Assembly (NCBI GenBank): GCA_018400015.1
Contig: JAGYNB010000001.1
Coordinates: 264,124-328,123 of the forward strand
Origin: Candidatus Omnitrophota bacterium
GTDB taxonomy: Bacteria; Omnitrophota; Gorgyraeia; Gygaellales; Gygaellaceae
Length of the DNA: 64,000 nucleotides
Direction: 5' to 3'
Under the pieces are notes generated by a model, which was given only the letters and a program-made list of their open reading frames with translations, was not told where the DNA came from and did not search any database. The translations under genes were made by a program, and so were the position numbers. Every line of letters begins with the position of its first letter. The first letter of the stretch is position 1. Of the stretch, positions 22,567 through 40,676 are shown piece by piece.

Positions 22567-22614
22567 TTAACAAAGCGATTTATTGTAGCCTTTTTATTAT
22601 CAACAGGTTATAAA

Positions 22615-22648
22615 ATAAGGGTAAGCTGTAAGCTTGCCCTTATTTTTT
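22615..22648 (+). terminator. Rho-independent terminator
   Basis: Stem taagggtaagct/agcttgccctta (one G-U wobble), then TTTTTTG. Confidence 0.55.
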
Positions 22649-22690: not shown

Positions 22691-23851
22691 ATGCTACCAT
22701 TAATCATATTAATTCTTTTTTTAAGGCCGTTTATTTCCGAGTTTATAAGCCTGAGATTTGATAGTTTGTTCAGCCTTATTTTAGTTTTAATGATTTCTAT
22801 TTATCTTATCGTCAGCAAGAAGATCAGGAAGACTAAATACGATAAACTCATTTTCTTTTATTTCCTTACCATTATAATTGCCGGTTTTTTCTCGTCAGAT
22901 TTAGTAAAAAGTATCAGCAATATACATAAATATACAACTTCGATTATGATTTTTTATTTAGTTTTCTTGGAAGAAGAAAGAAGACTTTTTATACCCTTTA
23001 TCATAGTCAGTGGTTTTTTCATAAGTATTTATTCGCTGTTTCATTTATTTTTCGTTCCCGGAATGGTGATGGATTATCTTAATAAACAGGGGATTGTTTA
23101 TCCTTTTGCAGAAAATTTTCTTGCAAGGAGAAGGGCTTTTGTCCCTTTTGTTTCTCCCAACCTTCTTGCAGGATATATAGCTATGGTTTTTTCCATTGCT
23201 TCTGGGTTTGTTATGGAGCGTTTGCGTAGGCAAAACAAATCACCAGTTTTGATTTTCTATGTTCTTATTTTATTGACTTTGTTTTTTGTTCTGTTTGCCA
23301 CAAAATCAATAGGGGCTTGGTTATCGTTATTGGCTTCTTTATCGTGCTATGTTTTATTCAGGAAACGAATAAACGGGAAATCTTTGTTTTATATAGCTCT
23401 AATTACTGTTTTTTTGCTGGTTATTTTGTATCTACGTTTTAAAGAATCGAGTGTTATTACTTTTCCATCTTTTTCTTTGCATCAAAGGATAAATTATCTT
23501 TTGGAGAGTTTTAAGGTTATATCGGCCCATCCTTTTATGGGCGTGGGTTTAGGTAATTTTATGATCAAAGAAACACTTTTTTGCCATAATTCTTTTATTC
23601 AGATATGGGCTGAAGCTGGCATTGCCGGGTTTATTTCATGGTTGATTTTAGTGGCTGTATTTATTAGAGAGTCAATTATTGGTTTGAAAATAAAGAAAGA
23701 CTATTTTTTTGACGGTTTATTTATAGCTGGAATGTGTTTTATTTTCCATAATTTTGCAGATTTTAGTTATTTTATTCCGCAGGTTTCGTTTATTTGGTGG
23801 ATGGTTTTAGGTTTTATTCTTGCCGAGAGCAGGTTAAGTACTAATGAGTAA
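22691..23851 (+). CDS. O-antigen ligase/polymerase-family (Wzy_C) polytopic membrane protein
   Basis: 386 aa, ~10-12 TM; Wzy_C-like HNSFIQIWAEAGIAGF motif in the distal periplasmic loop. Confidence 0.6.
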   Translation: MLPLIILILFLRPFISEFISLRFDSLFSLILVLMISIYLIVSKKIRKTKYDKLIFFYFLTIIIAGFFSSDLVKSISNIHKYTTSIMIFYLVFLEEERRLFIPFIIVSGFFISIYSLFHLFFVPGMVMDYLNKQGIVYPFAENFLARRRAFVPFVSPNLLAGYIAMVFSIASGFVMERLRRQNKSPVLIFYVLILLTLFFVLFATKSIGAWLSLLASLSCYVLFRKRINGKSLFYIALITVFLLVILYLRFKESSVITFPSFSLHQRINYLLESFKVISAHPFMGVGLGNFMIKETLFCHNSFIQIWAEAGIAGFISWLILVAVFIRESIIGLKIKKDYFFDGLFIAGMCFIFHNFADFSYFIPQVSFIWWMVLGFILAESRLSTNE

Positions 23852-25148
23852 AAAAAATATTATTATATTGGGCGCCGGTCTTTGCGGCTTAAGCGTTGCC
23901 TGGCACCTTAAAAAGATGGGTATAGCTGCTTGTGTATATGAAAAAGAAGATAAAGTGGGGGGGCTTTGCAAAAGCGAGAGCATAGGGGATTTTGAGTTTG
24001 ATTATGATGGTCATGTTTTACATTTTAGATATCCCTATGTATTTAATCTTGTTCAGAGGTTGTTGAATAACAATATACTTGAATTTAAAAGGAGTTCATG
24101 GTTTTATTTTCATGGTAAATATTTTCCTTATCCGTTTCAGGCAAATCTGTATGGTTTTCCTTTCCGCATAAGCCGGGAATGTCTTCTTGGGTTCATTGAG
24201 GCGCAGAAGAATAAAAAAACAGCAGATAATAAAAACACAAGTTTCTTAGACTGGATAAATCATACGTTCGGTCCGGGTATTGCCAAATATTTTATGATTC
24301 CTTATAACGATAAATTTTGGACAGTTGCTCCAAAAAGATTGACTTATCATTGGTCAAAGCGCGTTATTCCGGTTCCTTCTTTGAGCCAGATTATTGAAGG
24401 CACATTATCGCAGAGCAAGAATGACTTTGGTTACAATATACAGTTTTGGTATCCTAGATCCGGAGGAATTATGCAGCTGCCTTTAGCTTTTGCAAAAGGC
24501 AATAAAAATATTTTCACAGGTGTTTCGGCAGTTCAGATAGATCTTAAAAAGAAAATAGTTTATCTTTCAAACGGCGAAAAAAATAAATTCGATTATTTGA
24601 TTTCTACGATACCTTTGCCAGAGCTTGGTGGTATAATTAAAGATATGCCTTATTCGATAAAAAGGTCTTTGAATAGGCTAAGATGGAACTCCATTTTTAA
24701 CCTGAATTTGGGTTTTGACGATAAACGAAAAGTTAATCGACATTGGATTTATTTTCCTCAGAAAAATATTAGTTTTTTTAGAGTCGGGTTCTATAGCAGT
24801 TTTTCAGCAGGTTCATGCCCTAAGGAAAAAAAAGCTATTTATACAGAAGTGTCTTATTCGCGTTTAAGGCCACTGCGCCGCAAAGGAATAAAAGACAGAA
24901 TAAAGAGAGATTTAATTAAAACTGGAATAATCGCCTCAAAAAATGATATTGTTGTTGAGTTTGAGAATGATATTAAATACGGTTATCCGATTTACGATAA
25001 GAATTATGCACCGGCTAGATTGGCGATATTGGATTACTTAAAGCAGAATAAAATGTTTTCATGCGGCAGATACGGGTCGTGGGCATATATGTCTATGGAG
25101 GATGTTATCCTTGATGGGTATAGGATTGCAAATTCAATTAAGGGATGA
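23844..25148 (+). CDS. FAD/NAD(P)-binding oxidoreductase, UDP-galactopyranose mutase-like (Glf family)
   Basis: 434 aa; N-terminal Rossmann ILGAGLCGLSVA; GGL...DGHVLHF, YNDKFWTV and C-terminal YGSWAYMSMEDVI resemble UGM/protoporphyrinogen-oxidase-like folds. Confidence 0.45.
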   Translation: MSKKNIIILGAGLCGLSVAWHLKKMGIAACVYEKEDKVGGLCKSESIGDFEFDYDGHVLHFRYPYVFNLVQRLLNNNILEFKRSSWFYFHGKYFPYPFQANLYGFPFRISRECLLGFIEAQKNKKTADNKNTSFLDWINHTFGPGIAKYFMIPYNDKFWTVAPKRLTYHWSKRVIPVPSLSQIIEGTLSQSKNDFGYNIQFWYPRSGGIMQLPLAFAKGNKNIFTGVSAVQIDLKKKIVYLSNGEKNKFDYLISTIPLPELGGIIKDMPYSIKRSLNRLRWNSIFNLNLGFDDKRKVNRHWIYFPQKNISFFRVGFYSSFSAGSCPKEKKAIYTEVSYSRLRPLRRKGIKDRIKRDLIKTGIIASKNDIVVEFENDIKYGYPIYDKNYAPARLAILDYLKQNKMFSCGRYGSWAYMSMEDVILDGYRIANSIKG

Positions 25149-25927
25149 ATATTAAAAAGAGAATAATTAGTAATTTCTATAAAAAAGATATATTGCTGGA
25201 TATGTCTTTCAGGCAGATGCGGTTAAAATATGCCGGAGCCAAATTGGGTTTATGGTGGGCTGTTATTTCTCCTTTTATTCTTGCTTTGAGTATTAATTTT
25301 GTTTTTAGACATGCTTTCAAGATCAATATTGATAATTTCGCTTTTTTTGTACTTTCAGGGATTATCCCCTGGATTTATATTACCAATACCTTATCTGAAT
25401 CAACAAGCGTATTAATTAATGATGCTTCATTGGTAAGACAAGGATCAATTCCTATAGAGTTTTTGCCGTTTTCTACCGCTCTTGCCAATTTATTGATTTT
25501 TCTTATAGGTATGTTGTTTTTATTGCCTTTTTTTATCATAATCAAATATAACATAGTATTTATGTTGTGGTTTTTACCATTTGTTATACTGATGCATTTT
25601 ATGTTTTTGACAGGGTTAGCGTTATTTGTATCATTTATAAATGTTTTTGTCAGAGATTTTTCCCATCTATTGAATAGTATTTTTATGGTTTGGTTTTGGG
25701 TGACTCCAGTATTTTATTCGCTGGAAATGATTCCTTCTTCATATAGATGGGTTTGTTTATTAAACCCCGTGACTTATTACGTTATAATGTACAGGGATAT
25801 TTTGTTTTACGGGCAATTACCAGATTTAAATATTATTCTCGCTGGTTTGTTCATCGCGATGGTATCTTTATTGTCTGGGTATAGCACATTTATCAAAAAT
25901 GAGTTTTCAATTTTAAAACGATTATGA
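25145..25927 (+). CDS. wzm: ABC-2 type polysaccharide exporter permease (Wzm/TagG/KpsM-like)
   Basis: 260 aa, 6 TM; ABC-2 family signature region; translationally coupled to the downstream ATPase. Confidence 0.75.
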   Translation: MNIKKRIISNFYKKDILLDMSFRQMRLKYAGAKLGLWWAVISPFILALSINFVFRHAFKINIDNFAFFVLSGIIPWIYITNTLSESTSVLINDASLVRQGSIPIEFLPFSTALANLLIFLIGMLFLLPFFIIIKYNIVFMLWFLPFVILMHFMFLTGLALFVSFINVFVRDFSHLLNSIFMVWFWVTPVFYSLEMIPSSYRWVCLLNPVTYYVIMYRDILFYGQLPDLNIILAGLFIAMVSLLSGYSTFIKNEFSILKRL

Positions 25928-27984
25928 ATGCGCTAAGTTTTAATAAAGTAAGTGAAAAGTACCGTATTAAGTTTGTTGAAAACGGTATAGTTTCTTGGGA
26001 GGAAATATGGGCCTTAAGAGATATAAGTTTTAATTTGAAAAAGGGAGAGGTGTTAGGTTTAATCGGACATAATGGTGCCGGTAAGACTACGTTACTAAAA
26101 TTGATATCAGGAGCAATTGTTCCTGATGAAGGGGTTATTGATGTTGTTGGCAGGATCTCTGTATTGATGGAGCTGGGTATAGGGTTTAATCCGGAGTTTA
26201 CTGGCAGAGAAAATATTATTTTCAATGCAAAAATATATGGATTTAATGAGGAAAGCTTAGCGGTTAAGATTGATAAGATAATCGAATTCGCGGATTTAGG
26301 CAGATTTATAGACTCGCCAATAAAATATTATTCTCAAGGCATGTATATGCGTTTGGCATTTGCCTTGGCTATATTTGTTGATCCGGACATACTTTTAATC
26401 GATGATATTTTAGCCGTGGGTGACGAAGATTCTCACAGAAAGTGTATAAGTAAAATATTTGAATTGAAAGCATCTGGTAAAACCATAGTTTTGGTAACTC
26501 ACGATATAACTATGGTGGAAATGCTTTGCGATAGAGTGATTCTGTTGGAAAAAGGGAGAAAGATTAAAGAGGGATTACCAAAAGAGGTAACCAGATATTA
26601 CCTTCAGGCATGCCAGGCCCGCATTAAGGCAAAGCAGGAAGAAGAGACCAGGCTTCTTCGCCAGCAGCGTACGATAACAAATGGTGACATAAGCCTCTAT
26701 GCTGATGTCGAAAGCAAGGCCTTAAGAATTTACCATAAGGACAAGGAAATAACCAATGGCAACGGCCTGCATAGTTCCTTTTTGATAAATGATATATGGT
26801 ATGAATTCCAGGCAGATTGGGAAATAGAAAAGATTGATGAAGGCGTCTTGAAGGTGGGTATGCATTTTGATAGTTTTATTCAGAATATAATCTTAACGCT
26901 GAATCAGGGCGTGTTGGAAATAAATATTGAATATAGTGTTCTAGAAAATAATAATTTGGACAGTTATCATATTAAGTTTGAGTTTGCCGATAGTTATAAA
27001 ACTTGGTTTTGTCATGACGACAGAGGGAGTTTTGATGTGCAGGATTATATAGATTATGCAGCTCCGGTACGCTTAAAAGATAATAAAGTGAGTAAAATTG
27101 CTTTTATTCATGGAGAAAAAACTGAGATTCCTTCCCTTTTGATCGAAGTTTTATCGGATTTAGACAAGAGAATAGCTTCTCTTTATCGTAGAAATGATTT
27201 ATCGTGCGAGAGGGTTTGTTTTCAGTCTAGTTTTATTGTTCCCCGGATGAAAGGTTTTTCAGAAAATTATAGCGGTGCGTTTCAAGCAAAAATTAATTTT
27301 AAAGATAAAATAGAAGAATCTGAAATTACTGATAATAAATTGGAATTTATATATCAGCTTTCAAATGGCGATCTCGATTTTATCTTCGATCGTGGTAAGG
27401 GGAAAATAATTTATAGAGGCAATGAATTAACGTCTGGATTGGGATTTTATACCACTGTTCGTTCAAAAGGGATGTGGTTTGATTCTTCGCAAGCGTTTTG
27501 GAAGGTTGAAAAAAAGAGCAAGAACAAGATTGAATGTTTTGGCCAGTGGTTTTATCTTCCTATTTTACAGAGATGGAGTATTTGTGTAGGCAAAAAAGGT
27601 ATTGATTTTGATATAAGGATGGATATTCCTGAGGAATGCATAACAGAGCTAAGGCACTCAGCATTGATGTTAAGTAACAATTATAAAAAATGGTTCGTAA
27701 ACGATAATATTTTCGGCGATTTTTTGGAAGAATATCATGAAGAATACGATACTATTCCTTTTCGTTTTTGGAGTGGCAATACCGCTGTGCTTGCTGCTTT
27801 ATCTGCAAAAAAGAACTTTCCTCAGGTATTTTTTAAAAGCAAGAATTGTCCATTGGCAATAGTGGAAAATAGTGAATCTATTTATTGGGCAAGGAGATTT
27901 CAGTTTCAGTCTAAAACGGATAATAAGGTAAGCTTGGGCAATAAAGGCATATTTTTTGCAGGCAAAATAACGATCAATGATTAG
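25924..27984 (+). CDS. wzt: Polysaccharide ABC exporter ATPase (Wzt/TagH-like) with ~430-aa C-terminal extension carrying two copies of a putative glycan-binding domain
   Basis: 686 aa; Walker A GHNGAGKTT, signature YSQGM, Walker B LLIDD within the first ~250 aa. The C-terminal extension has two related ~120-aa modules: W.EFQADWEIEK...YKTWF and WFDSSQAFWKVEK...WFYLPILQRWSI...YKKWF. Confidence 0.8.
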   Translation: MNALSFNKVSEKYRIKFVENGIVSWEEIWALRDISFNLKKGEVLGLIGHNGAGKTTLLKLISGAIVPDEGVIDVVGRISVLMELGIGFNPEFTGRENIIFNAKIYGFNEESLAVKIDKIIEFADLGRFIDSPIKYYSQGMYMRLAFALAIFVDPDILLIDDILAVGDEDSHRKCISKIFELKASGKTIVLVTHDITMVEMLCDRVILLEKGRKIKEGLPKEVTRYYLQACQARIKAKQEEETRLLRQQRTITNGDISLYADVESKALRIYHKDKEITNGNGLHSSFLINDIWYEFQADWEIEKIDEGVLKVGMHFDSFIQNIILTLNQGVLEINIEYSVLENNNLDSYHIKFEFADSYKTWFCHDDRGSFDVQDYIDYAAPVRLKDNKVSKIAFIHGEKTEIPSLLIEVLSDLDKRIASLYRRNDLSCERVCFQSSFIVPRMKGFSENYSGAFQAKINFKDKIEESEITDNKLEFIYQLSNGDLDFIFDRGKGKIIYRGNELTSGLGFYTTVRSKGMWFDSSQAFWKVEKKSKNKIECFGQWFYLPILQRWSICVGKKGIDFDIRMDIPEECITELRHSALMLSNNYKKWFVNDNIFGDFLEEYHEEYDTIPFRFWSGNTAVLAALSAKKNFPQVFFKSKNCPLAIVENSESIYWARRFQFQSKTDNKVSLGNKGIFFAGKITIND

Positions 27985-30346
27985 GCATATTTTAAAAAGA
28001 ATTAAAGCGCATTTTAAAAAAGGCGGTTTGTTATATGTCGGATTACGTGTTGTTAAATATCTTAAATTTCTAATTATATCTTTGATTATAAAAATAAAGC
28101 GTGATAAAAAAAAGTCAGTTACCTTAAAGGAAACAGTTTTATCATCAGATAATCTTAAGATTGTAGTTTTAAATTCAGGAATAAACTTTTTATGGAAGGA
28201 TGTTCTTTTTACTGTTCATCCTGGTGTGAATTTAGGTTTTAATATATTGGGGTTATGGAATGATTCTGCCAGGGCCGATTGGCATATCGTAGAGAAGGCA
28301 ACTAATTACTTAAAAATAAAAGTTTATTTCTGGGAATTGCCTTTGAACCAAACATGGGAAATTAAGCTTTTAAGTAAAAACAGGGTAAAAATAGATATTT
28401 GGCTTGAGGTTGAGGAATGGTTGCATATTGATGAAATTCGGCTTTTGTGTCTTGCCGAAGGAAAATATAAATGTTGGATTAATAATTTTGAAATAAATAA
28501 TTTCCAGAAATTTGGCAATGCCTGGCGGGATATATGTATGAGTTCAGAGGTTTCTTCTTTGGTGGGCTTGAGGTTTCCTAAAATCAACGATATTCCTTCG
28601 TTTACTATGGAAACAGACGAAAAAGACACCTTTGCCATTATTCAGAATTCTCCCCAGAATATGTCAGCGCATGCAGTTGGTTTTAGAAAGATTATCCCAA
28701 CCGGAAAAAGAGATTATGCTCCCGGCACATATGGACTTTTCTCAGTTTATTTTAATTTTTTTAGTTCTGATCAGCCTCTTGATAATAAAATCGAGCTTTT
28801 AAGAAAAATAGATCTTAAAAAAATGTCAGCCGTTAATAATAGAGCGAGCAGTACTTATAATCAAGGGATTTTGTTGGTTAATCTTCCATGGCAGGAGGAA
28901 GGCCAATTCGGCGTGAGAGCAGGTTCACGCTGGCCACATATAAAAGATTATTACGAAGGCGATTATACTCCTTTTCCTTTTTTTCTGGCTTACTCAGTCG
29001 CATTATTAAGAAAACACGGTTTTAAATCTATGATAATTGATGCTCTGGCAGAGAGACTTAACGAAAACATATTTCTAGAGAAAGTTTCTAGATTGGGTGC
29101 TGATATTTTAGTCGCAGAGGTTTCAACGCCTTCATTTAAAAACGACATTTCGCTTTTGAAGAAAATGTCGGGGAAGGGAATGAAAATTGTAGTTTGCGGT
29201 CCGCATATTGAGATTCATGAAAGAGATTTCTTGAGTAAGCATCCTTTTATAGATTATGTTTTGTTCGGGGAATACGAGTTTTCTTTACTTGATTTGGTTA
29301 CTGCCATATTTGAAAATAAGCCGCTTTGCGATGTCAAAGGTTTAATCTACCGTGAAGGCGACACTATTATTAAAAACCCTCCAAGAGAAGCTTTTGACAT
29401 AAACTTGCTGCCTTGGCCTTCCCGGGAAGATCTACCTATGGAAAAGTATTGGGATTTGCCTGGTAATATCCCTTATCCATCTGTACAGATGGCTGCTTCT
29501 AGAGGCTGTCCTTTTGGCTGTAATTTTTGTCTTTGGCCCCAGGTAATGTATTTGGGTAATCATTACAGGGTAAGAGATGTTAAGGATACAATAGATGAAA
29601 TGGAGTATCTTGTAAGGGAAATGGGGTTTAAGTCTGTTTACTTTGATGACGATACTTTCAATATAGGCAAAACAAGAATGCTGGATTTTTGCAACGAAAT
29701 TAAAAAACGCGGTTTAAATGATATTCCTTGGGCGATTATGGCAAGAGCAGATTTAATGGATGAAGAGATATTGAACAATATGGAATCTGCGGGACTTTGG
29801 GCTGTTAAGTATGGAGTGGAAAGCCCAAACAGTAAGCTCATTAAGACAATAAATAAAGATATGGGTATCGATAAGACAACGAGAAATATAAAGATTACAC
29901 AGGGGTTGGGGATTAAAACTCATCTTACTTTTTGTTTTGGAGCAGATGGTGAAACAAAAGATACGGTTCAAGAAACTATTAATTATGCCTTGAAGCTTAA
30001 TCCGGAATCAGTACAGTTTTCCATTCTTACTCCTTTTCCCGGAACAAAATTGTACGAAAAACTGGACAAGGAAGGAAGAATTTTAACTAAAGATTGGTTT
30101 AAATATGACGGTCATTATCAATGCGTTTTTCGTCATGATAACTTTACCCCTGAGGAGTTGGTTGCTATTAAGAAACGCGCTTACGGTATCTGGCTGGATC
30201 ATACAAGAAGAAGAAGGGGCGTAAAAGGAGACATAGACAGGTTCAATAAATATCTAAGAAAACATGGATTAGCCAAGGCAATTAGCAAGACCTTATCTTA
30301 TTTTGAATTTGTTATGTTTAAAAGAAAAGAGTTTCTGAATGGATAA
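27977..30346 (+). CDS. B12-binding radical SAM protein with N-terminal TM helix and Wzt-CTD-like domain
   Basis: 789 aa; TM LIISLIIKI; residues ~55-190 carry LWNDSARADWHIVEK...FWELPLNQTWEI...YKCWI, homologous to the Wzt C-terminal modules; B12-binding region; ASRGCPFGCNFC rSAM cluster. Confidence 0.75.
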   Translation: MIRHILKRIKAHFKKGGLLYVGLRVVKYLKFLIISLIIKIKRDKKKSVTLKETVLSSDNLKIVVLNSGINFLWKDVLFTVHPGVNLGFNILGLWNDSARADWHIVEKATNYLKIKVYFWELPLNQTWEIKLLSKNRVKIDIWLEVEEWLHIDEIRLLCLAEGKYKCWINNFEINNFQKFGNAWRDICMSSEVSSLVGLRFPKINDIPSFTMETDEKDTFAIIQNSPQNMSAHAVGFRKIIPTGKRDYAPGTYGLFSVYFNFFSSDQPLDNKIELLRKIDLKKMSAVNNRASSTYNQGILLVNLPWQEEGQFGVRAGSRWPHIKDYYEGDYTPFPFFLAYSVALLRKHGFKSMIIDALAERLNENIFLEKVSRLGADILVAEVSTPSFKNDISLLKKMSGKGMKIVVCGPHIEIHERDFLSKHPFIDYVLFGEYEFSLLDLVTAIFENKPLCDVKGLIYREGDTIIKNPPREAFDINLLPWPSREDLPMEKYWDLPGNIPYPSVQMAASRGCPFGCNFCLWPQVMYLGNHYRVRDVKDTIDEMEYLVREMGFKSVYFDDDTFNIGKTRMLDFCNEIKKRGLNDIPWAIMARADLMDEEILNNMESAGLWAVKYGVESPNSKLIKTINKDMGIDKTTRNIKITQGLGIKTHLTFCFGADGETKDTVQETINYALKLNPESVQFSILTPFPGTKLYEKLDKEGRILTKDWFKYDGHYQCVFRHDNFTPEELVAIKKRAYGIWLDHTRRRRGVKGDIDRFNKYLRKHGLAKAISKTLSYFEFVMFKRKEFLNG

Positions 30347-34661: not shown

Positions 34662-36042
34662 TAATTTAATTAGTTATTTGGATGTATTTTTCCAAAAAGA
34701 TTGCTTTGAAAGAATAAATTCAATTATTGATCCGGATAGCCTTCAATTTAAGCCTGCCAAAGAAGTTTACGAAGATTTAAGATATTATGTGTCTAGATTT
34801 AAGACTAACAAATTCGAATTTAACAGTTATTGCAATTTAAATACGGGTTTTCTATCAAAATTGTGCGATTTGATTATTAACGCTGATTTCTGTATCAAGT
34901 GGTCGAGCCCCGCAGTTTTCAAAAAGGATTTTAACGAAGATAATATTCTACAATTAAAGAAATCAGGATGTTATAGACTTGTTTTTGATTTGTTCTCTGC
35001 ATCGGATAATTTTCTTGAAAGAATGAAAATACCTTTTGACAGCCGAGTGGTTATAAATATATTGCAAAAGTGTAAAGAGCATGGGATTGATGTTGGAATT
35101 AGGTTGTTGTTTTATCATCCGCAGTCAGATATAACTGATTTTGATAACACATTGGAGTTTATTCGTTTAAATTCAGAATATATCAAGGAGATATCCTGCG
35201 TTGACTTATGTATTAGCTCTTTTTTGCGACAGCCTAGATGCAGGAATTTTTATTCCTGCAAAGGCGATAGTAATAATAATTATTCTTCTTTGGCTAAGCG
35301 CATCATGAAACCTTACCGCATAATCAAAGATTTAGGTATTCCGGCGGTTGTTTTTTCTCCATCTGAACAGCAGTTTGATTTAATCAATAGTTTCTTTACT
35401 CGCCACGTAATTTGTAACAGAAATTTATCTTTAGTTTTTGATGGCGGTTGTTGCCATATTTTCTGGAAGAATATGCGCTTAACTAAAGGTTTCGGAATAT
35501 ATACATCTATTTTTGCTTTAGGTAATTGGCAAGATTCTCGGCAGGTCGATTGGAAATTTGTCTGTAAAGACAATTCTAGCATAGTTGTTGTTGGCAATTG
35601 GAAATTCTTGCCTATAGTACAGCAATGGCGTATAGAGATGTTTGCTGAAAATAAGATTTCTTTTTGTGTAACTATGGAAATCAAGGATGGTATCATTATA
35701 GATGGTGAACAGCAGTTTAATGTCATGTTAGACTCAGTATATAAAAGCTGGTTTTTCTCTAAAGATCTTTCCAATATTTTTCCAGAATTTTTTAACAAAG
35801 AGTGGGTTAATTTATTTGAGAAAACAATTGAACACGCTGATTGTATTGGCGTTGAGGCAAATTCTGAAAAATTCCCTGATTTGAGATTGCGCTGCGATTT
35901 TTTCCATGGAAGAAAGCTGGCCGTATTGAACACGCCATTAGAGTTTAGTTCCAGAAAGCTTAAGGCATATTTTTTCGACATGAATAAAAAACCACCAGGG
36001 GAAATAGTTTATTTTAAAGGAGAGATTTTAATTGGCAAATAA
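34651..36042 (+). CDS. Degenerate radical-SAM-like (no CxxxCxxC) protein fused to Wzt-CTD-like domain
   Basis: 463 aa; residues ~90-190 align to the distal half of the B12-rSAM barrel of ORF 36032 (LKKSGCYRLVFDLFSASDNFLERM... vs KAGCTRLCYGIESASDDVLKRM...) but the Cys triad is absent. Residues ~255-380 carry NWQDSRQVDWKFV...WKFLPIVQQWRI...YKSWF. Confidence 0.5.
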   Translation: MESNNLISYLDVFFQKDCFERINSIIDPDSLQFKPAKEVYEDLRYYVSRFKTNKFEFNSYCNLNTGFLSKLCDLIINADFCIKWSSPAVFKKDFNEDNILQLKKSGCYRLVFDLFSASDNFLERMKIPFDSRVVINILQKCKEHGIDVGIRLLFYHPQSDITDFDNTLEFIRLNSEYIKEISCVDLCISSFLRQPRCRNFYSCKGDSNNNYSSLAKRIMKPYRIIKDLGIPAVVFSPSEQQFDLINSFFTRHVICNRNLSLVFDGGCCHIFWKNMRLTKGFGIYTSIFALGNWQDSRQVDWKFVCKDNSSIVVVGNWKFLPIVQQWRIEMFAENKISFCVTMEIKDGIIIDGEQQFNVMLDSVYKSWFFSKDLSNIFPEFFNKEWVNLFEKTIEHADCIGVEANSEKFPDLRLRCDFFHGRKLAVLNTPLEFSSRKLKAYFFDMNKKPPGEIVYFKGEILIGK

Positions 36043-38002
36043 TGTTTATGATGCTGCTTTAGTTATGATGCCTCCGTGGGAGCCTAAGATAGCGCCTTTA
36101 GGTCTTGCTTATATTGCTGAACATTTAAAAAGCAATGGGTTGAAAGTTAAGATTATTGATTTTAATCTGCGTCTTTATAAGCAGTCTGATGAGAGAAAGC
36201 GCATTTTTTGGAATATTTCCAACATTAACTTTATGCCTCTTCCGGAAATTACGGCCAGAATGTCAAGTTTATTTAAAAAAGAAATTGACGGTTTAACCGA
36301 TGAGCTTATTTCTTGTAACGCCGGTGTAATAGGTTTTTCTGTCAATATTACCAGTATTGGTCTTGCCGGCAAGATAAGTTCGATCATAAAGCAAAAGGAC
36401 AGCAGTAAAATAGTTGTTTTTGGGGGAACAGGTTGTTTTTGGCAAAATGATAGAGATAGTATTGCTAGAGAAGATTTGGCATCCATAGATGCTTTTGTGA
36501 TAGGGGAAGGAGAGGAAGCTTTCACAAAAATAGTCGAGAGTCGGGGAGAGTTAATTAACCAGCTTTCTTGTGTTCTCAGCAAAGAGCAGGGTTTTCAGAA
36601 TAGGGTAATGCCCTGTCATATTTCGGATATTAATTCTTTAAGTTTTCCTAAATTTGCTGATTTTGATTTGAATTCGTATTTAGATAAGCATGTACCGATG
36701 CTGATCAGCAGAGGATGTATAGGAGGATGTGTTTATTGCATTGACCGTTTAATGTGCGGTAAATATAGAGCAAGGGACGCAGAGAGTATTATCGAAGAAA
36801 TGCAATATCATATAAATTATAATAAAATCAACGATTTTGCTTTTAATGATTTGATATGCAACGGTGATCTCAGGCAGCTGGAGAAGCTATGTGATTTAAT
36901 TATCGCTTCCGGACTTAAAGTTGTATGGAATAGCTATGCAATGATACGTAAAGATATGACGAAGGATTTATTTGATAAGATGCATAAGGCGGGCTGCACA
37001 AGGTTATGTTATGGGATTGAGAGCGCTTCCGACGATGTATTAAAAAGAATGAATAAATTTTATCTTTCAGATGATGCCAAAAGGATAGTTCAATTAACTC
37101 ATGATGCGGGGATAAACACTGCTTTTAATGTTATAGTTGGTTTTCCCGGCGAAACAATGGAAGATTTTGAAGAAACAATTAGTTTTATTGTCGATAATCA
37201 CGCATCGATAAATGAAATAACTAATATATCAAGTTTTGCAGTAATGCAGAATTCAGTTTTAGGCAAAGATACAGAAAAGTTCGGTATAATTATTCCCGAA
37301 AATAAAGATCTAAACTATTTTGTTGATAATAGAGGGTTGGATTTAAACGGGAGAATTAAACGAGTTTATAAAACTGTATTTACATCCGTAATGCTGGGTA
37401 TTAAAAATGTTATTGTAAATGTACCAAGTTATAATATCAGTTCTGATAATAATTTGGTTATGATGATTAATTTACCTCCGGCACGTGTTGATATGCCGTG
37501 TTTAGGTCTGTTGAAGATGCACAATAAACTAAATATAGCGAATGTAAAGAAAATTATAAGGGATTCGAATATTGAGTTATTTCGGATGGTTAACGAGGAT
37601 GAAAAAAGATTATGGCTAACGGAAAATTATTTTTCTTGGTTAAAGCCAGAATTTCTATTGAAAGAATACAGCCATTTGAGTGATGTTTTTTTTCAATATA
37701 TAAACGATATTGTTTCTTCTGGCGCGGGGAGAATCTACTTTTTCATAAATAAGGAGAATTGGATGTTATCTTGTAAGATATCTAACTATCTTAAGAAGAT
37801 TAGGCCAGATCTATTACTTTTTTATAACCAGGATTCTTCCGAAGAATTTATTGCGATGGACGATATTGATTTTTGCAAGATTAAACCTTTTGTTGAAAGC
37901 TTTGAAAGAAAAGAAATCAAAGATAAACAACCATTAAAATATGATTTATTAGATTTAAGTTTATACGAAGATTTATGTTTACCTATAGACCTGATTAAAT
38001 AA
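36032..38002 (+). CDS. B12-binding radical SAM protein
   Basis: 656 aa; N-terminal B12-binding-like Rossmann (ALVMMPPWEPKIAPLGLAYI); SRGCIGGCVYC cluster; GIESASDDVL, IVGFPGET core motifs. Confidence 0.75.
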   Translation: MANNVYDAALVMMPPWEPKIAPLGLAYIAEHLKSNGLKVKIIDFNLRLYKQSDERKRIFWNISNINFMPLPEITARMSSLFKKEIDGLTDELISCNAGVIGFSVNITSIGLAGKISSIIKQKDSSKIVVFGGTGCFWQNDRDSIAREDLASIDAFVIGEGEEAFTKIVESRGELINQLSCVLSKEQGFQNRVMPCHISDINSLSFPKFADFDLNSYLDKHVPMLISRGCIGGCVYCIDRLMCGKYRARDAESIIEEMQYHINYNKINDFAFNDLICNGDLRQLEKLCDLIIASGLKVVWNSYAMIRKDMTKDLFDKMHKAGCTRLCYGIESASDDVLKRMNKFYLSDDAKRIVQLTHDAGINTAFNVIVGFPGETMEDFEETISFIVDNHASINEITNISSFAVMQNSVLGKDTEKFGIIIPENKDLNYFVDNRGLDLNGRIKRVYKTVFTSVMLGIKNVIVNVPSYNISSDNNLVMMINLPPARVDMPCLGLLKMHNKLNIANVKKIIRDSNIELFRMVNEDEKRLWLTENYFSWLKPEFLLKEYSHLSDVFFQYINDIVSSGAGRIYFFINKENWMLSCKISNYLKKIRPDLLLFYNQDSSEEFIAMDDIDFCKIKPFVESFERKEIKDKQPLKYDLLDLSLYEDLCLPIDLIK

Positions 38003-38021
38003 GCAAAAAAATAATAAAATT

Positions 38022-40571
38022 ATGCAGAGTACGTTTCCTGAGAATTTATCGATTCAAACTACATCCATTTGCAATGCTCATTGTATTTTTTGTCCTTATG
38101 AGCAGATTAAAGATAAATTTCCCGCAAAGGTTATGGATAATAGTTTGTTTAGAAAGATTATAGATGAATCTAGCTCTTATCGTCAAATCAAGAGAATAAT
38201 TCTTTATATGAATAATGAACCTTTGACTGATAAGTTTATTATTGAGCGGATTAATTATGCAAAGGAGAAAATTCCTTGGTCCAGCGTGCATTTATTGACT
38301 AACGGTAGTCTTCTGAATGATGCATTGATAAGAAATCTGCTAGATTCTCGGCTTGACTGGATTGGTTTTAGTTTACATGGGGTAAGGAAGCAGACTTTTG
38401 AAAAGACAATGGGCATAGACTATGATAAAACATTTAAAAATGTAAATAATTTTATAAACTCGGCGAAAGAAGTAAAAAATATAAAAGAATACGTAATGGT
38501 TACTTTTTTGCGCCATATATATTTAAGTGAATCTGAAAAAGAAGAAGCCTTTGCTTATTGGAAAAGCAAAGGTATAGAGAGAATTAGTTATTTTGATGGT
38601 CCTGTCAGCCGTGCCGGAAACGTAAAGAATATGCCAACGGTAAGAAATCATTCGGTTTATGGCTGTAATTCAATTTGGGCAAATGAGATGATGCATATAG
38701 TTGAGGATGGAAATGTTGTTGCCTGTTGCATGGATTGGAATAGAGAAATAAACTTAGGCAATCTTAATGCTGATTCGATTGCTCAGGTGTGGAATTCACA
38801 AAGTTACAACGAATTTAGAGAAAGAAGAGACGGTTTATTGTCTTCAGAAGAAGAATTTCTGTGTAAAAGGTGCGAAATGGCAAAGACCGGTGAAACAGAT
38901 ACTAATATCCGGACAAGAAATAGCGGCAATTTGGATATTGGATTAGTAACGCTTCCTCCTTGGGGGGTTGAGAATCCTCCTATTGGGCTGGGCTATTTAG
39001 ATTCGCACCTGAGGAACAAGGGTTTTAAGACAAAGATATTTGATTTTAATATTTTATTTCATAATAGTGTTGAAGATTCTTTAAAGATGCTTTGGCATGT
39101 GGAAAATAAAAACTATTGGAGCAATAAAGAGACATTTTCCTTGCTGGTTAATATTTTCAAGAAACAGATAGAGGAAACGGTTGCTATATTGTTGTCGTCT
39201 AATTGTAAGTTTTTTGGATTTTCTGTAGTTGATCCCAAGGAAAGAATTACAATAGAAGTTATAAAAAGAATGAAGAAGAAAGCACCTCAAATAAAAGTAA
39301 TTCTAGGCGGGCCCGCCTGTTCCAGCGATGTGCAAAGAGAATTCTTTTTGCATAATGCCCCTGGGGTTATAGATTATTTTGTTGTCGGAGAAGGAGAAGA
39401 AACTCTTGAGAAAATTATCGACAACGAGATTAAATCAATAAATCCCCCTAGGGAAAATGGTGTTGCATTTTATGAATCCAAGAAATGGCATTACATTCCA
39501 AGGGATCCGATAAAGCCCTTGGATAAAATCGGTTTCCCTAAGTATGCCGGTATCAATCTCAAGGAGTATAACGGAGGCCGTTCCCTTCTTGTAGAATGGT
39601 CCAGGGGGTGTATAGGAAATTGTAGTTTTTGTAAGAATTATCACTTGGTTAAGGGCTATCGCTTCAGAAGCCCTAAAAACATAGTAGAAGAATTAAGTTA
39701 TTTTGTAAACAATCATAATATACGCGAATTTACAGTATGCGACAGTTTAATGAATGGGAATTTTAAACAGCTCAATGACGTTTGTGATGAAATTATTAAA
39801 AAAGGAATCAATATTAGATGGTCTGGTCAAATTGCATCAAGAAAAGAAATGACTGTTGATTTATTCACTAAGATGAAAAGGGCAGGCTGTTTAAAGATGC
39901 AGATTGGTGTTGAGAGCGGTTCGGATTTAGTTTTAAAGAAAATGAATAAAATTTATACTTCGAAAATCTCCCGAAATACAGTAAGAAATGCAAATAAGGC
40001 GGGTATTGAAACGGAAATATTTATAATCATAGGTTTTCCCGGAGAATCGCATAAAGAATTTATGAAAACCTATGATTTTATAAAACATAACGCCGCCTAT
40101 ATTGATACAGTTAAATCAATTAATACGCTTCATTTAATCGCAGGCACAGAGGTTTATGAACAAAAAGAGAAGTTTGGCATAAAAGAACTTCCCAGTGAAA
40201 ACTGGCATTATCTTTGGGAGACAATAGATGGCAATAATTATTCCGTAAGGAAAGAAAGAGCACAAAAAATCTTGGATTTATGTTGGCGATTAGGTATTAA
40301 GGTTATGGAAACGAACATAAAAGAAGGCAAAGAGGCGTCAGCGACAGTTTATGAAAAAATGGCAATTCCACAAGCAGTAGAAAAATTAAAGTTTGAAATA
40401 AATAAATTACAGGGTTTGCCTCAGCAGAATAAGGTAAAAACAAAGATGAGAAGAAGTTGTCTGAAATATATTCTTCTTGTTCCTATAGTTTTCTATACTT
40501 TATTTTACATAATTTATTTCCAGTTATTTAGGTTGATAAAAGGCAGGTTTATATTAGGGGGAAGCGAATAA
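38022..40571 (+). CDS. Dual radical SAM fusion: N-terminal SPASM/twitch-type rSAM + C-terminal B12-binding rSAM, C-terminal TM anchor
   Basis: 849 aa; first domain CNAHCIFC with VACCMDWN...LGNL...VWNS SPASM-like tail; second domain B12-binding + SRGCIGNCSFC; hydrophobic C-terminus ILLVPIVFYTLFYIIYFQLF. Confidence 0.75.
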   Translation: MQSTFPENLSIQTTSICNAHCIFCPYEQIKDKFPAKVMDNSLFRKIIDESSSYRQIKRIILYMNNEPLTDKFIIERINYAKEKIPWSSVHLLTNGSLLNDALIRNLLDSRLDWIGFSLHGVRKQTFEKTMGIDYDKTFKNVNNFINSAKEVKNIKEYVMVTFLRHIYLSESEKEEAFAYWKSKGIERISYFDGPVSRAGNVKNMPTVRNHSVYGCNSIWANEMMHIVEDGNVVACCMDWNREINLGNLNADSIAQVWNSQSYNEFRERRDGLLSSEEEFLCKRCEMAKTGETDTNIRTRNSGNLDIGLVTLPPWGVENPPIGLGYLDSHLRNKGFKTKIFDFNILFHNSVEDSLKMLWHVENKNYWSNKETFSLLVNIFKKQIEETVAILLSSNCKFFGFSVVDPKERITIEVIKRMKKKAPQIKVILGGPACSSDVQREFFLHNAPGVIDYFVVGEGEETLEKIIDNEIKSINPPRENGVAFYESKKWHYIPRDPIKPLDKIGFPKYAGINLKEYNGGRSLLVEWSRGCIGNCSFCKNYHLVKGYRFRSPKNIVEELSYFVNNHNIREFTVCDSLMNGNFKQLNDVCDEIIKKGINIRWSGQIASRKEMTVDLFTKMKRAGCLKMQIGVESGSDLVLKKMNKIYTSKISRNTVRNANKAGIETEIFIIIGFPGESHKEFMKTYDFIKHNAAYIDTVKSINTLHLIAGTEVYEQKEKFGIKELPSENWHYLWETIDGNNYSVRKERAQKILDLCWRLGIKVMETNIKEGKEASATVYEKMAIPQAVEKLKFEINKLQGLPQQNKVKTKMRRSCLKYILLVPIVFYTLFYIIYFQLFRLIKGRFILGGSE

Positions 40572-40676
40572 TAATGTCGGTTATTTTGTTATGCTGGAGA
40601 GAATTTTTTTAAAAAATAAAATTGATTGGTTATTCGGTAGCGGCATAGTGGATTTGAAAAACAAAAGGTAAAGATT

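What the first reader, a model, noticed from the sequence alone, without database searches (positions are those of the whole stretch)
25145..40571. Wzm/Wzt polysaccharide ABC exporter directly coupled to a 12.6-kb block of five multi-domain radical SAM enzymes
Between the exporter genes (25145-27984) and the glycosyltransferase block (40677-47010) sit, with 4-10 bp overlaps between consecutive genes up to 36032, then a 19-nt gap before 38022:
- 27977: a B12-binding rSAM;
- 30339: a 1440-aa triple rSAM-SPASM protein;
- 34651: a cysteine-less rSAM-like protein;
- 36032: a second B12-binding rSAM;
- 38022: an SPASM-rSAM::B12-rSAM fusion.
That is nine predicted catalytic rSAM domains plus one pseudo-domain in a single operon-like unit.
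Class B (B12) rSAMs are typically C-methyltransferases, and SPASM/twitch rSAMs perform crosslinks or epimerisation-type chemistry, normally on peptides or small molecules. I know of no described O-antigen, teichoic or capsule locus in which the ABC exporter is followed by such a battery. I infer a glycan (or glycolipid) that undergoes extensive radical-mediated tailoring, for example C-methylation or epimerisation, possibly on the polyprenol-linked polymer before export.
Basis: partly seen in the sequence, partly recalled or inferred. Interest (0 to 1): 0.92.

Follow-up and report, generated by a model that had tools for sequence, protein, structure and literature searches.

The report
Radical-SAM battery in a glycan-export operon
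An uncultured Omnitrophota bacterium has a surface-polysaccharide operon in which the ABC exporter is followed by five radical-SAM proteins, several of them fused to sugar-binding-type domains, and this conserved but undescribed layout suggests radical chemistry is used to tailor a polysaccharide before export.

Summary
The gene layout is real, with corrections. There are seven CxxxCxxC radical-SAM (rSAM) domains, not nine. The "cysteine-less" protein (r3) has 17 Cys. It is an r4-like barrel that lost its B12 domain and cluster loop.

The block lies in a 16-gene co-directional unit (22691-47010): WaaL-like, FAD oxidoreductase, Wzm, Wzt, five rSAM genes, five GTs, WecA-like.

- **Conservation.** Wzm, Wzt-(MOD)2-4, MOD/B12-rSAM, SPASM-rSAMs and GTs recur across Omnitrophota. 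Outside the phylum, r1-core orthologues sit beside Wzt carrying canonical Wzt_C.
- **Closest characterised relatives.** HpnJ, AprD4 and BtrN all act on sugars or cyclitols.
- **Against RiPP.** No precursor peptide or RRE was found.

Best reading (confidence ~0.55): cytoplasmic radical tailoring of a lipid-linked glycan before Wzm/Wzt export. No chemistry is shown. I found no published description. It is a new variant of ABC-transporter-dependent glycan assembly.

The parts
22612..22646 (+). Terminator-like hairpin (16-bp stem, then a T-run). Likely upstream boundary of the transcription unit.
   Evidence: It is the strongest hairpin in 21000-40999. A promoter-like site follows at 22650-22678.
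22691..23851 (+). Wzy_C / O-antigen-ligase-like membrane protein (WaaL-like). First gene of the block.
   Evidence: Pfam Wzy_C 46.2 bits. Homologues occur in 6 of 63 related loci >=12 kb.
23844..25148 (+). FAD/NAD(P) oxidoreductase (amine-oxidase fold). A recurrent partner immediately upstream of wzm.
   Evidence: Pfam Amino_oxidase and NAD_binding_8. NCBIfam PRK07208-like, 189 bits, below the cut-off. Present in 15 of 63 related loci.
25145..25927 (+). Wzm, the ABC-2 permease.
   Evidence: Pfam ABC2_membrane 61.4 bits. Hydrophobic segments.
25924..26655 (+). Wzt nucleotide-binding domain.
   Evidence: Pfam ABC_tran. Best NCBIfam hits are TagH and Wzt, below their cut-offs.
26656..27342 (+). 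Wzt MOD copy 1 ('first' subtype).
   Evidence: MOD HMM hit, residues 247-472, 165 bits. Subtype analysis.
27343..27984 (+). Wzt MOD copy 2 ('last' subtype). This is the modelled unit.
27977..28120 (+). r1 N-terminal segment with a moderately hydrophobic stretch (aa 18-38). Possible membrane anchor.
   Evidence: Kyte-Doolittle 1.71.
28121..28843 (+). r1 MOD (r1_N subtype).
   Evidence: BLASTP to r3 MOD 55 bits and to Wzt MOD 37 bits. Conserved in all 120 listed r1 homologues.
28868..30346 (+). r1 catalytic core: B12-binding-like domain plus rSAM (C511-x3-C515-x2-C518). HpnJ/AprD4-like.
   Evidence: HpnJ 226 bits, cut-off 577; AprD4 6fd2, 79 bits. The three Cys are invariant in A2.
30339..31790 (+). 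r2 unit 1: rSAM (C30/34/37), a twitch-like auxiliary Cys set (382/400/401/447/451) and an extra conserved Cys group (296/327/330/337).
   Evidence: 100% conserved; C330 82%.
31791..32213 (+). r2 insert: CBM6/CBM35-fold beta-sandwich (aa ~485-625).
32409..33590 (+). r2 unit 2: rSAM (C701/705/708) plus auxiliary Cys 953/971/1027/1031.
33591..34661 (+). r2 unit 3: rSAM (C1105/1109/1112) plus auxiliary Cys 1354/1372/1373/1419/1423.
   Evidence: Closest PDB sequences are MoaA and BtrN.
34651..35391 (+). r3 N-terminal half: truncated r4-like rSAM barrel with no B12 domain and no CxxxCxxC (pseudo-domain).
   Evidence: Pfam Radical_SAM positions 83-166 only, 24.8 bits. 34% identity to r4 248-399.
35392..36042 (+). 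r3 MOD, closest to the Wzt 'last' subtype.
   Evidence: BLASTP 76 bits, 32.6% identity to Wzt 479-608.
36032..38002 (+). r4: B12-binding plus rSAM (C229/233/236), with a C-terminal region resembling the first part of a B12 domain. TTG start.
38022..38921 (+). r5 N-terminal module: rSAM (C17/21/24) plus twitch-like SPASM (C215/235/236/281/284). BtrN-like.
   Evidence: BtrN 4m7s, 50 bits.
38922..40454 (+). r5 C-terminal module: B12-binding plus rSAM (C530/534/537).
40455..40571 (+). r5 C-terminal transmembrane helix (aa 812-839). Tail anchor.
   Evidence: Kyte-Doolittle 2.12.
40677..41840 (+). GT4 glycosyltransferase (GT4a). Follows the rSAM block in most related loci.
41851..42957 (+). GT4 glycosyltransferase (GT4b).
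42948..43805 (+). GT2 glycosyltransferase.
43872..44834 (+). GT2 glycosyltransferase.
44859..45989 (+). GT4 glycosyltransferase (GT4c).
46018..47010 (+). WecA/MraY-family polyprenol-phosphate HexNAc-1-P transferase (initiating enzyme).
   Evidence: Pfam Glycos_transf_4 105 bits. NCBIfam ECA_wecA 89.7 bits, below the cut-off.

Best explanation
The locus encodes an ABC-transporter-dependent (Wzm/Wzt) pathway for a lipid-linked surface glycan, with a battery of radical-SAM tailoring enzymes inserted into it.

Proposed sequence of events:
1. A WecA-like transferase primes polyprenol phosphate. [inferred]
2. Five GTs build the chain on the cytoplasmic face. [inferred]
3. Seven rSAM catalytic domains modify sugar residues by radical chemistry. 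They comprise three B12-domain type and four twitch/partial-SPASM type. They are held at the membrane by r5's tail anchor and perhaps r1's N-terminus. They are directed to the glycan by fused binding domains: MOD on r1 and r3, and a CBM6/35-fold domain in r2. Candidate reactions include ring rearrangement or dehydration (r1, HpnJ/AprD4-like), dehydrogenation or epimerisation (BtrN-like twitch units) and C-methylation (r4, r5C). [inferred]
4. Wzt reads the finished chain through its two C-terminal MODs. These occupy the position that the Wzt_C carbohydrate-binding domain holds in O9a-type exporters. Wzt then exports the chain with Wzm. [inferred]
5. A WaaL-like ligase attaches the glycan outside the cytoplasm. 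[inferred]

r3 has lost its cluster motif and probably serves as a non-catalytic MOD-bearing adaptor. [inferred]

Shown here: the domain content, the folds, the cysteine conservation, the conserved synteny and the nearest homologues. Inferred: the substrate, the chemistry, the order of events and the ligand of MOD.
For: **Architecture**
- Domains and motifs.
- From 22691 to 47010 there are 16 co-directional genes. The largest gap is 105 nt, and a terminator-like hairpin lies just upstream.

**Shared MOD**
- r3-C vs Wzt-C scores 76 bits, r1-N vs r3-C 55 bits, r1-N vs Wzt-C 37 bits.
- Wzt homologues carry 2, 3 or 4 copies.

**r2 insert**

**Competence of r2**
- In 55 r2 homologues all three CxxxCxxC motifs and the auxiliary Cys sets are 100% conserved.

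**Synteny**
- L001-L004.
- Of the 63 r1-core loci >=12 kb, 52 hold Wzm/Wzt or GTs and 53 hold SPASM rSAMs. The median is 5 rSAM domains per locus, and the maximum is 11. MOD is fused in many arrangements to B12 and SPASM rSAMs.
- In an archaeon (L057) and a Desulfobulbaceae MAG (L076), and in L067 and L078, the r1-core orthologue lies beside a Wzt that carries Wzt_C.

**Nearest characterised relatives act on sugars or cyclitols**
- HpnJ (PMC9204698), AprD4 and BtrN.

**Logic from established knowledge**
- rSAM enzymes need a reducing cytoplasm and SAM. Only the ABC-dependent route completes the polymer in the cytoplasm.
Against: - No biochemical or structural data exist for any member, and rSAM substrates cannot be read from sequence.
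- The galactose-mutarotase-like fold also occurs in non-sugar contexts (YidC P1, a chloroplast NDH subunit, a PBCV-1 capsid protein). Carbohydrate binding by MOD is therefore inferred from fold and position only.
- MOD subtypes are only ~24% identical to one another and are position-specific. r1-MOD and the Wzt MODs therefore need not bind the same epitope. They could instead be docking domains.
- Relatives of these B12-type rSAMs also act on lipids (HpnP/R, ladderane candidates).
- No NCBIfam equivalog cut-off is reached for any rSAM protein here.
- Transcription as one unit is not shown.
Confidence: 0.55

Rival explanations
1. The rSAM enzymes make unusual monomers. They act on nucleotide sugars or on the first lipid-linked residues, as DesII, AprD4 and BtrN act on small substrates, and not on the polymer. 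The GTs then polymerise the modified units.
For: All characterised sugar-directed rSAMs known to me act on small molecules. The closest solved relatives, AprD4 and BtrN, do so as well. Sugar-precursor genes commonly lie inside glycan loci.
Against: This does not explain why polymer-type binding domains (MOD, CBM6/35 fold) are fused to the catalysts in many arrangements. It also does not explain why MOD is shared with the exporter, or why r5 is membrane-anchored.
Confidence: 0.17
2. MOD is mainly a protein-protein docking module. The MODs on r1 and r3 pair with the MODs on Wzt and so tether the tailoring enzymes to the exporter. Glycan recognition lies elsewhere, for example in the CBM-fold insert. 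This can coexist with the main explanation.
For: MOD subtypes are position-specific and conserved between genomes (481 of 501 nearest neighbours are of the same position). That pattern suits fixed partner interfaces. r3's MOD is closest to the Wzt 'last' subtype. Stand-alone MOD proteins exist.
Against: MOD replaces Wzt_C, a known carbohydrate-binding domain, at the same position of Wzt. The fold family is overwhelmingly sugar-associated.
Confidence: 0.15
3. The battery modifies a lipid: the polyprenol carrier, a membrane-spanning lipid, or the lipid part of a glycolipid. Wzm/Wzt then exports a glycolipid.
For: NCBIfam hits include lipid-directed B12 rSAMs (rSAM_ladder_B12, HpnR). HpnJ's substrate is lipid-anchored. 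A polyprenyl synthetase lies inside the cassette of L076. Omnitrophota are mentioned in tetraether-lipid surveys.
Against: All of those hits are far below their cut-offs. Two sugar-binding-type folds are fused to the enzymes. GTs, a WecA-like transferase and a WaaL-like protein flank the block.
Confidence: 0.08
4. The rSAM proteins are RiPP or peptide maturases that happen to neighbour a glycan locus.
For: NCBIfam lists RiPP families among the weak hits (rSAM_ocin_1 151 bits, ApyD, StsB, PqqE). One source annotates an r2 homologue as 'AlbA'.
Against: - All of those scores are below their cut-offs.
- No PqqD/RRE domain was found at E<=0.01. The CxxxCxxC motifs lie 17-30 residues from the module starts, which leaves no room for an RRE.
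- The gaps within the rSAM block are <=19 nt.
- Only two small intergenic ORFs lie in or next to the gene block. One is a 64-aa protein that lies before the terminator-like hairpin (DUF2934-like by eye, not scanned). The other is a 26-aa ORF with no Cys, Ser or Thr.
- The conserved neighbours are exporter and GT genes.
Confidence: 0.03

Closest known systems
E. coli O8/O9a-type ABC-transporter-dependent O-polysaccharide pathway (WecA, GTs, WbdD terminator, Wzm/Wzt with C-terminal CBM, WaaL)
   Same: - ABC-2 permease plus an ATPase with a C-terminal extension.
- A polyprenol-P HexNAc-1-P transferase, GT4 and GT2 glycosyltransferases and a Wzy_C/WaaL-like gene in one co-directional block.
- In non-Omnitrophota relatives the Wzt next to the orthologous rSAM carries canonical Wzt_C.
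   Different: - The Wzt extension here is two (elsewhere up to four) copies of a ~225-aa supersandwich module with no Pfam model, rather than the Wzt_C jelly roll.
- No WbdD-like kinase or methyltransferase terminator was found.
- Five rSAM genes lie between the exporter and the GTs.
HpnJ (B12-domain rSAM of hopanoid cyclitol-ether synthesis)
   Same: - Best NCBIfam hit of the r1 core, near full length (226 bits).
- HpnJ is proposed to contract the sugar ring of a membrane-lipid-linked glucosamine (PMC9204698). That is radical chemistry on a lipid-anchored sugar.
   Different: - The score is far below the equivalog cut-off (577).
- r1 carries an N-terminal MOD.
- Its neighbours are exporter and GT genes, not hpn genes. 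No hopanoid genes are in the window.
AprD4 and BtrN (aminoglycoside-pathway rSAM enzymes)
   Same: - Closest solved structures by sequence: r1 core to AprD4 (79 bits); r5-N and r2 unit 3 to BtrN (50 and 26 bits).
- The twitch-like single auxiliary Cys set (C-x17-(C)C...C-x2/3-C) resembles BtrN (the comparison to BtrN is from my knowledge).
   Different: - Those enzymes act on small soluble pseudo-oligosaccharides or cyclitols. They are single-domain and lack binding modules.
- Here the modules are concatenated, fused to CBM-type domains, and partly membrane-anchored.
Class B rSAM C-methylases GenK/GenD1 (gentamicin) and MoeK5 (moenomycin)
   Same: - B12-binding domain followed by an rSAM core, as in r4 and r5C.
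- MoeK5 groups with HpnJ in similarity networks.
- Their methylation sites being on sugar carbons is from my knowledge.
   Different: No specific family assignment was reached. Methyl transfer is untested here.
SPASM/twitch RiPP maturases (PqqE, AlbA, StsB and similar)
   Same: Radical_SAM plus SPASM Pfam domains.
   Different: - No RRE and no precursor peptide.
- Only 4-5 conserved auxiliary Cys per unit instead of the seven-Cys SPASM motif.
- The context is glycan genes.

Membership tests
ABC-transporter-dependent glycan export (Wzm/Wzt) | ABC-2 type permease next to an ABC ATPase | tested here: met
   PF01061 61.4 bits and PF00005 80.8 bits. The genes overlap by 4 bp.
ABC-transporter-dependent glycan export (Wzm/Wzt) | O9a-type: Wzt_C (PF14524) carbohydrate-binding domain at the Wzt C-terminus | tested here: not met
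   No Pfam hit on residues 256-686 even at E<=10. Two MOD units occupy the position instead. Wzt_C is present in L057, L076, L067 and L078.
ABC-transporter-dependent glycan export (Wzm/Wzt) | Initiating polyprenol-P sugar-1-P transferase and cytoplasmic GTs in the locus | tested here: met
   PF00953 105 bits, plus three GT4 and two GT2 genes.
ABC-transporter-dependent glycan export (Wzm/Wzt) | NCBIfam equivalog score for a named exporter (TagH, galactan Wzt or Wzm) | tested here: not met
   TagH 171-183 bits vs cut-offs 320-538. Galactan Wzt 155 vs 400. Galactan Wzm 54 vs 380.
ABC-transporter-dependent glycan export (Wzm/Wzt) | Export of a lipid-linked glycan | not testable with these tools
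   Needs genetics or biochemistry.
Radical SAM superfamily | CxxxCxxC cluster motif within a Radical_SAM (PF04055) domain | tested here: met
   Seven motifs, in r1, r2 (x3), r4 and r5 (x2). 100% conserved in r2 homologues and invariant in r1 homologues. r3 lacks the motif.
Class B (cobalamin-dependent) rSAM | B12-binding-type Rossmann domain N-terminal to the rSAM core | tested here: met
   PF02310 in r1 (32.4 bits, at the cut-off), r4 (38.1) and r5C (47.0).
Class B (cobalamin-dependent) rSAM | Cobalamin binding and methyl transfer | not testable with these tools
   The r1 core's relatives HpnJ, BchE and AprD4 are non-methylases. That AprD4 does not use cobalamin is from memory.
HpnJ (TIGR03471 equivalog) | Score at or above the curated cut-off (577.6), in a hopanoid gene context | tested here: not met
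   226.5 bits. No hpn genes are in the window.
SPASM domain rSAM | PF13186 match | tested here: met
   Three matches in r2 and one in r5.
SPASM domain rSAM | Full seven-Cys motif CX9-15GX4C...CX2CX5CX3C...C for two auxiliary clusters | tested here: not met
   Each unit conserves only C-x17-(C)C...C-x3-C, which is 4-5 Cys. r5N has C-x19-CC...C-x2-C. This is twitch-like. Unit 1 of r2 has an extra group of four conserved Cys.
RiPP maturase system | Adjacent precursor peptide gene | tested here: not met
   Gaps inside the rSAM block are <=19 nt. The only small intergenic ORFs in or next to the block are 22372-22566 (upstream of the terminator-like hairpin) and 40591-40671 (26 aa, no Cys/Ser/Thr).
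RiPP maturase system | RRE/PqqD-like recognition domain, or a RiPP-family NCBIfam score above its cut-off | tested here: not met
   No PqqD hit at E<=0.01. rSAM_ocin_1 scores 151 vs 281.85. ApyD, StsB and PqqE are all below their cut-offs.
CBM6/CBM35 carbohydrate-binding modules | Beta-sandwich fold matching CBM6/35 | tested here: met
CBM6/CBM35 carbohydrate-binding modules | Sequence-family membership | tested here: not met
CBM6/CBM35 carbohydrate-binding modules | Ligand binding | not testable with these tools
   Needs binding assays.
Galactose-mutarotase-like supersandwich | Fold | tested here: met
Galactose-mutarotase-like supersandwich | Mutarotase catalytic His/Glu residues | not tested
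   5-11% identity. The conserved MOD residues are mostly aromatic (W45, W53, W78, Y114, F127, F205). No superposition was available.

The most novel reading that the evidence does not exclude
Radical-SAM enzymes carrying their own carbohydrate-binding modules perform post-polymerisation radical tailoring of a lipid-linked polysaccharide on the cytoplasmic face. The reactions could be ring rearrangement, deoxygenation, oxidation or epimerisation, and C-methylation. The exporter ATPase then reads the product through a previously unrecognised tandem supersandwich domain (MOD) that replaces Wzt_C. This would be the first rSAM system acting on a polysaccharide. Its core (Wzt plus an HpnJ/AprD4-like rSAM plus twitch rSAMs) would be shared between bacteria and DPANN archaea.
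Probability: 0.4. Interest if true: 0.88.

Novelty: new variant of a known kind. Interest (0 to 1): 0.78.

Why it matters
Known polysaccharide tailoring uses polar chemistry, such as O-acetylation, O-methylation, phosphorylation and epimerisation through NAD or a carbanion. Radical SAM chemistry on sugars is known only for small molecules (aminoglycosides, nucleosides, hopanoid head groups).

A conserved cassette of up to 11 rSAM domains per locus, fused to glycan-binding-type modules and wired to a Wzm/Wzt exporter, would mean two things:
- a class of surface glycans bearing modifications at unactivated carbons, in a major uncultured phylum;
- a new enzyme class for glycan engineering.

It also defines a new exporter recognition domain (MOD). 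It gives a concrete, testable function to many multi-domain 'radical SAM protein' annotations in Omnitrophota and DPANN genomes. For Omnitrophota, some of which are reported to be host-dependent, the cell-surface glycan may matter for host contact.

Tried and rejected
- **Exact look-up of the window's proteins in assemblies** (r3, P0001) found no record. The cluster look-up gave only 'NCBI, contig 418,724 bp', with no name or accession. The Omnitrophota assignment therefore rests on homologue labels.
- **Sequence searches of MOD** against Pfam and against PDB sequences, as a single sequence and as a profile, gave nothing. Only the fold search was informative.
- **RiPP reading** was rejected. 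There is no precursor and no RRE, and all RiPP family scores are below their cut-offs.
- **Wzt_C in the window's Wzt** was rejected.
- **MOD in archaeal and Desulfobulbaceae Wzt extensions** was not found with a 120-sequence HMM. Four of six carry Wzt_C instead.
- **'r1-MOD and the Wzt MODs are recent copies that bind one epitope'** is not supported. The subtypes are ancient and ~24% identical.
- **Riboswitch or other RNA control** (for example a cobalamin riboswitch): no Rfam match in the whole window.
- **The sigma-70 promoter scan** was uninformative in 21000-40999 (80 sites found against 81 expected).
- **Literature**: seven full-text searches found no description of the cassette. A 2026 Omnitrophota preprint lists radical SAM only as one Pfam domain in a sugar-metabolism module of giant proteins. 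A single annotated rSAM gene in a C. jejuni HS:19 capsule-associated cluster is the nearest mention.

Full report
**1. The observation**

Pfam assigns them as follows:
- 25145-25927: ABC2_membrane (Wzm).
- 25924-27984: ABC_tran (Wzt, 686 aa).
- r1, 27977-30346: B12-binding + Radical_SAM.
- r2, 30339-34661, 1440 aa: three Radical_SAM and three SPASM matches.
- r3, 34651-36042: a sub-threshold match to the second half of the rSAM barrel only.
- r4, 36032-38002: B12-binding + Radical_SAM.
- r5, 38022-40571: Radical_SAM-SPASM followed by B12-binding-Radical_SAM.

Gene junctions overlap by 4, 8, 8, 11 and 11 bp, and a 19-nt gap follows.

Two details in the finding are wrong.
- There are seven CxxxCxxC motifs (r1 511; r2 30, 701, 1105; r4 229; r5 17, 530), not nine.
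- r3 is not cysteine-less. It has 17 Cys but no cluster motif. Residues 34-184 align with r4 248-399 at 34% identity. r3 is therefore an r4-like barrel that has lost the B12 domain and the cluster-binding loop.

**2. The unit is larger than stated**

Upstream lie a Wzy_C/WaaL-like gene (22691) and an FAD oxidoreductase (23844). They overlap each other and wzm by 8 and 4 bp. Downstream are GT4, GT4, GT2, GT2, GT4 and a WecA/MraY-family transferase.

From 22691 to 47010 there are 16 co-directional genes, and the largest gap is 105 nt. A terminator-like hairpin with a 16-bp stem lies at 22612-22646. No comparably strong hairpin occurs inside the block. This fits one transcription unit but does not prove it.

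**3. A shared, undescribed domain (MOD)**

The Wzt C-terminal 440 residues, the N-terminus of r1 and the C-terminus of r3 share a module.
- r3-C vs Wzt-C scores 76 bits, r1-N vs r3-C 55 bits and r1-N vs Wzt-C 37 bits.
- The module has no Pfam match and no PDB sequence match.
- An HMM finds 2, 3 or 4 copies in Wzt homologues of ~690, ~920 and ~1140 aa. The unit is ~225 aa.
- An AlphaFold model of Wzt 474-686, built on 25 units, is confident (pLDDT 92.8, pTM 0.90).
- A few matches are not sugar-related (YidC P1, an NDH subunit, a viral capsid protein).
- The nearly invariant residues are mostly aromatic.
- Against 1.84 billion representative proteins the profile finds only 668. MOD is a rare, lineage-restricted domain.

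**4. A second sugar-binding-type fold**

**5. Catalytic competence**

In 55 full-length r2 homologues the three CxxxCxxC motifs are 100% conserved. So are the auxiliary sets (382/400/401/447/451; 953/971/1027/1031; 1354/1372/1373/1419/1423). Unit 1 has a further conserved group (296/327/330/337). The pattern C-x17-(C)C...C-x3-C is twitch-like rather than a full seven-Cys SPASM motif.

r5 has a C-terminal transmembrane helix (812-839). r1 has a weaker N-terminal hydrophobic segment.

**6. Where it comes from and how common it is**

Homologues of Wzt, r1 and r2 are labelled almost exclusively Candidatus Omnitrophota/Omnitrophica.
- r1 homologues keep the MOD plus B12-rSAM architecture at 45-54% identity.
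- r2-type triple proteins are 43-59% identical.
- Many share contigs with the Wzt hits, judged by matching 'longest contig' lengths.
- Direct neighbourhoods show the same order:
  - L001-L003: Wzm, Wzt, B12-rSAM, rSAM, rSAM-SPASM, GT4 and further genes.
  - L004: Wzm, Wzt (1165 aa), B12-rSAM, a triple rSAM-SPASM (1431 aa), a SPASM-rSAM::B12-rSAM fusion (843 aa), a 122-aa ORF, then GT4.

Among the 63 best loci of >=12 kb:

| Feature | Loci (of 63) |
|---|---|
| Wzm/Wzt or GT homologues | 52 |
| SPASM rSAMs | 53 |
| MOD | 42 |

The median is 5 rSAM domains per locus and the maximum is 11.

MOD occurs in many fusions: MOD-B12, B12-MOD, MOD3-SPASM, B12-MOD-SPASM-MOD and SPASM-B12-MOD. It also occurs alone.

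**7. Beyond Omnitrophota**

The r1 catalytic core without MOD has 46-59% identical relatives in DPANN archaea, Desulfobacterota, Aminicenantes, Nitrospirota and other phyla.
- In archaeon AR15 (L057) it lies in the same co-directional cluster as Wzm and a Wzt that carries canonical Wzt_C (PF14524), together with more rSAMs and a GT4.
- In a Desulfobulbaceae MAG (L076) it immediately follows Wzm and a Wzt_C-bearing Wzt, and further rSAMs and a GT-like gene lie downstream.
- L067 and L078 also have Wzt_C. L059 and L073 do not.
- MOD-type Wzt proteins never show Wzt_C, and MOD was not detected in these outside loci.

MOD therefore occupies, in Omnitrophota, the position of the known glycan-recognition domain of O9a-type exporters.

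**8. Hints at chemistry**
- The r1 core's best family hit is HpnJ (226 bits, cut-off 577).
- HpnJ is proposed to contract the sugar ring of bacteriohopanetetrol glucosamine. In similarity networks it groups with MoeK5 (PMC9204698).
- The closest solved structures by sequence are:
  - AprD4 for the r1 core (79 bits);
  - BtrN for r5-N (50 bits);
  - MoaA and BtrN for r2 unit 3.

These relatives act on sugars, cyclitols or a nucleotide ribose, and several are not methylases. It remains open for r4 and r5C.

**9. Rivals**
- *RiPP maturation is unlikely.* There is no RRE. The modules start 17-30 residues before their cluster motifs. No RiPP family cut-off is reached. There is no room for, or sign of, a precursor.
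- *Action on monomer precursors* cannot be excluded, but it does not explain the fused binding modules or the membrane anchoring.
- *A lipid substrate* is possible for some members, because lipid-directed B12 rSAMs appear among the weak hits and a polyprenyl synthetase lies inside L076.
- *MOD as a docking domain* is a serious partial alternative. MOD subtypes are position-specific and conserved across genomes (481 of 501 nearest neighbours share position). Subtypes are only ~24% identical to one another. r1-MOD and the Wzt MODs therefore probably do not read the same epitope.

**10. Most likely mechanism (confidence ~0.55)**

A lipid-linked glycan is primed by the WecA-like enzyme and extended by the GTs in the cytoplasm. 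It is tailored there by the rSAM battery. Fused MOD and CBM-fold domains and membrane anchors recruit the enzymes. Wzt recognises the product through its tandem MODs, and Wzm/Wzt exports it. A WaaL-like enzyme then ligates it outside the cytoplasm.

The ABC-dependent route is the only one that finishes the polymer in the cytoplasm, where rSAM chemistry can operate. That is an argument from established knowledge, not a result.

Domain content, folds, conservation and synteny are shown here. Substrate, reactions and order of events are inferred.

**11. Novelty**

Seven full-text searches found no description of an exporter-linked rSAM battery or of CBM-fused rSAM enzymes. The nearest mentions are:
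- one annotated rSAM gene in a C. jejuni HS:19 capsule-associated cluster;
- a Pfam co-occurrence note in an Omnitrophota preprint.

The framework (Wzm/Wzt pathway, rSAM superfamily, CBM folds) is known. The combination, the MOD domain and the implied polymer-level radical tailoring are not. I rate it a new variant of a known kind, of high interest, resting entirely on computational inference.

Noticed in passing
window 540-3541: Another B12-binding rSAM (522 aa) is followed by a GNAT acetyltransferase and a polysaccharide deacetylase. A deacetylase next to a B12 rSAM recalls the hopanoid HpnK/HpnJ pairing (from memory). This may be a second sugar-directed rSAM locus.
   Followed up: no
window 48487-50946: About 1.5 kb downstream of the last glycan gene, beyond one transporter gene, lie an Rrf2/IscR-type regulator, SufC and a SufB/D-like gene. 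A strong promoter-like site lies at 48338-48365. Fe-S assembly genes so close to an operon needing at least 14 [4Fe-4S] clusters may be a coincidence or a functional link.
   Followed up: partly
window 12452-14960: Two tandem MinD/ParA-type P-loop NTPases with inserted 4Fe-4S ferredoxin domains are followed by a small rSAM protein and an ARMT1-like phosphatase. Their function is unknown.
   Followed up: no
P0134 (r1 homologue, 1236 aa; JGI contig of 16,625 bp): This r1-family protein carries intein/LAGLIDADG Pfam domains (PF14528, PF14890). An intein appears to be inserted in the B12-rSAM.
   Followed up: no
L030, L047, L073 (and L043): Some related loci carry 6-9 tandem paralogous ~350-aa SPASM rSAM genes after Wzt, in place of fused multi-domain proteins. 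The same catalytic repertoire therefore exists in both split and fused forms.
   Followed up: partly
window 36032-38002 (r4 aa 470-590): The C-terminal region of r4 resembles the first part of the B12-binding domains of r4 and r5 (37 bits). With the truncated r3, this suggests past duplication and rearrangement among r3, r4 and r5. Compare the SPASM-B12-MOD fusions in L020 and L026.
   Followed up: partly
window 47053-48321 and 17871-19253: Two paralogous DASS/ArsB/MamN-like anion transporters lie on either side of the glycan block, the upstream one about 3.4 kb before it. The downstream one is only 42 nt after the WecA-like gene and may be co-transcribed with it.
   Followed up: no
window 55944-57497 (- strand): A glutamine synthetase with an N-terminal HTH_17 DNA-binding domain. 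This is an unusual fusion.
   Followed up: no
window 22372-22566: A 64-aa ORF ending 'EWSDWFEAEKLV' looks like a DUF2934-type small protein, judged by eye. It lies between rlmN and the terminator-like hairpin. It is not a RiPP-like precursor.
   Followed up: partly
L076 11634-12557 and 7037-7867: In the Desulfobulbaceae cassette a polyprenyl synthetase lies between the rSAM genes and a sulfotransferase precedes wzm. This hints at carrier-lipid supply and glycan sulfation in that variant.
   Followed up: no
whole window: GC skew is positive throughout, and nearly all genes are on the + strand up to ~55.9 kb. No tRNA and no Rfam element occurs in 64 kb.
   Followed up: yes
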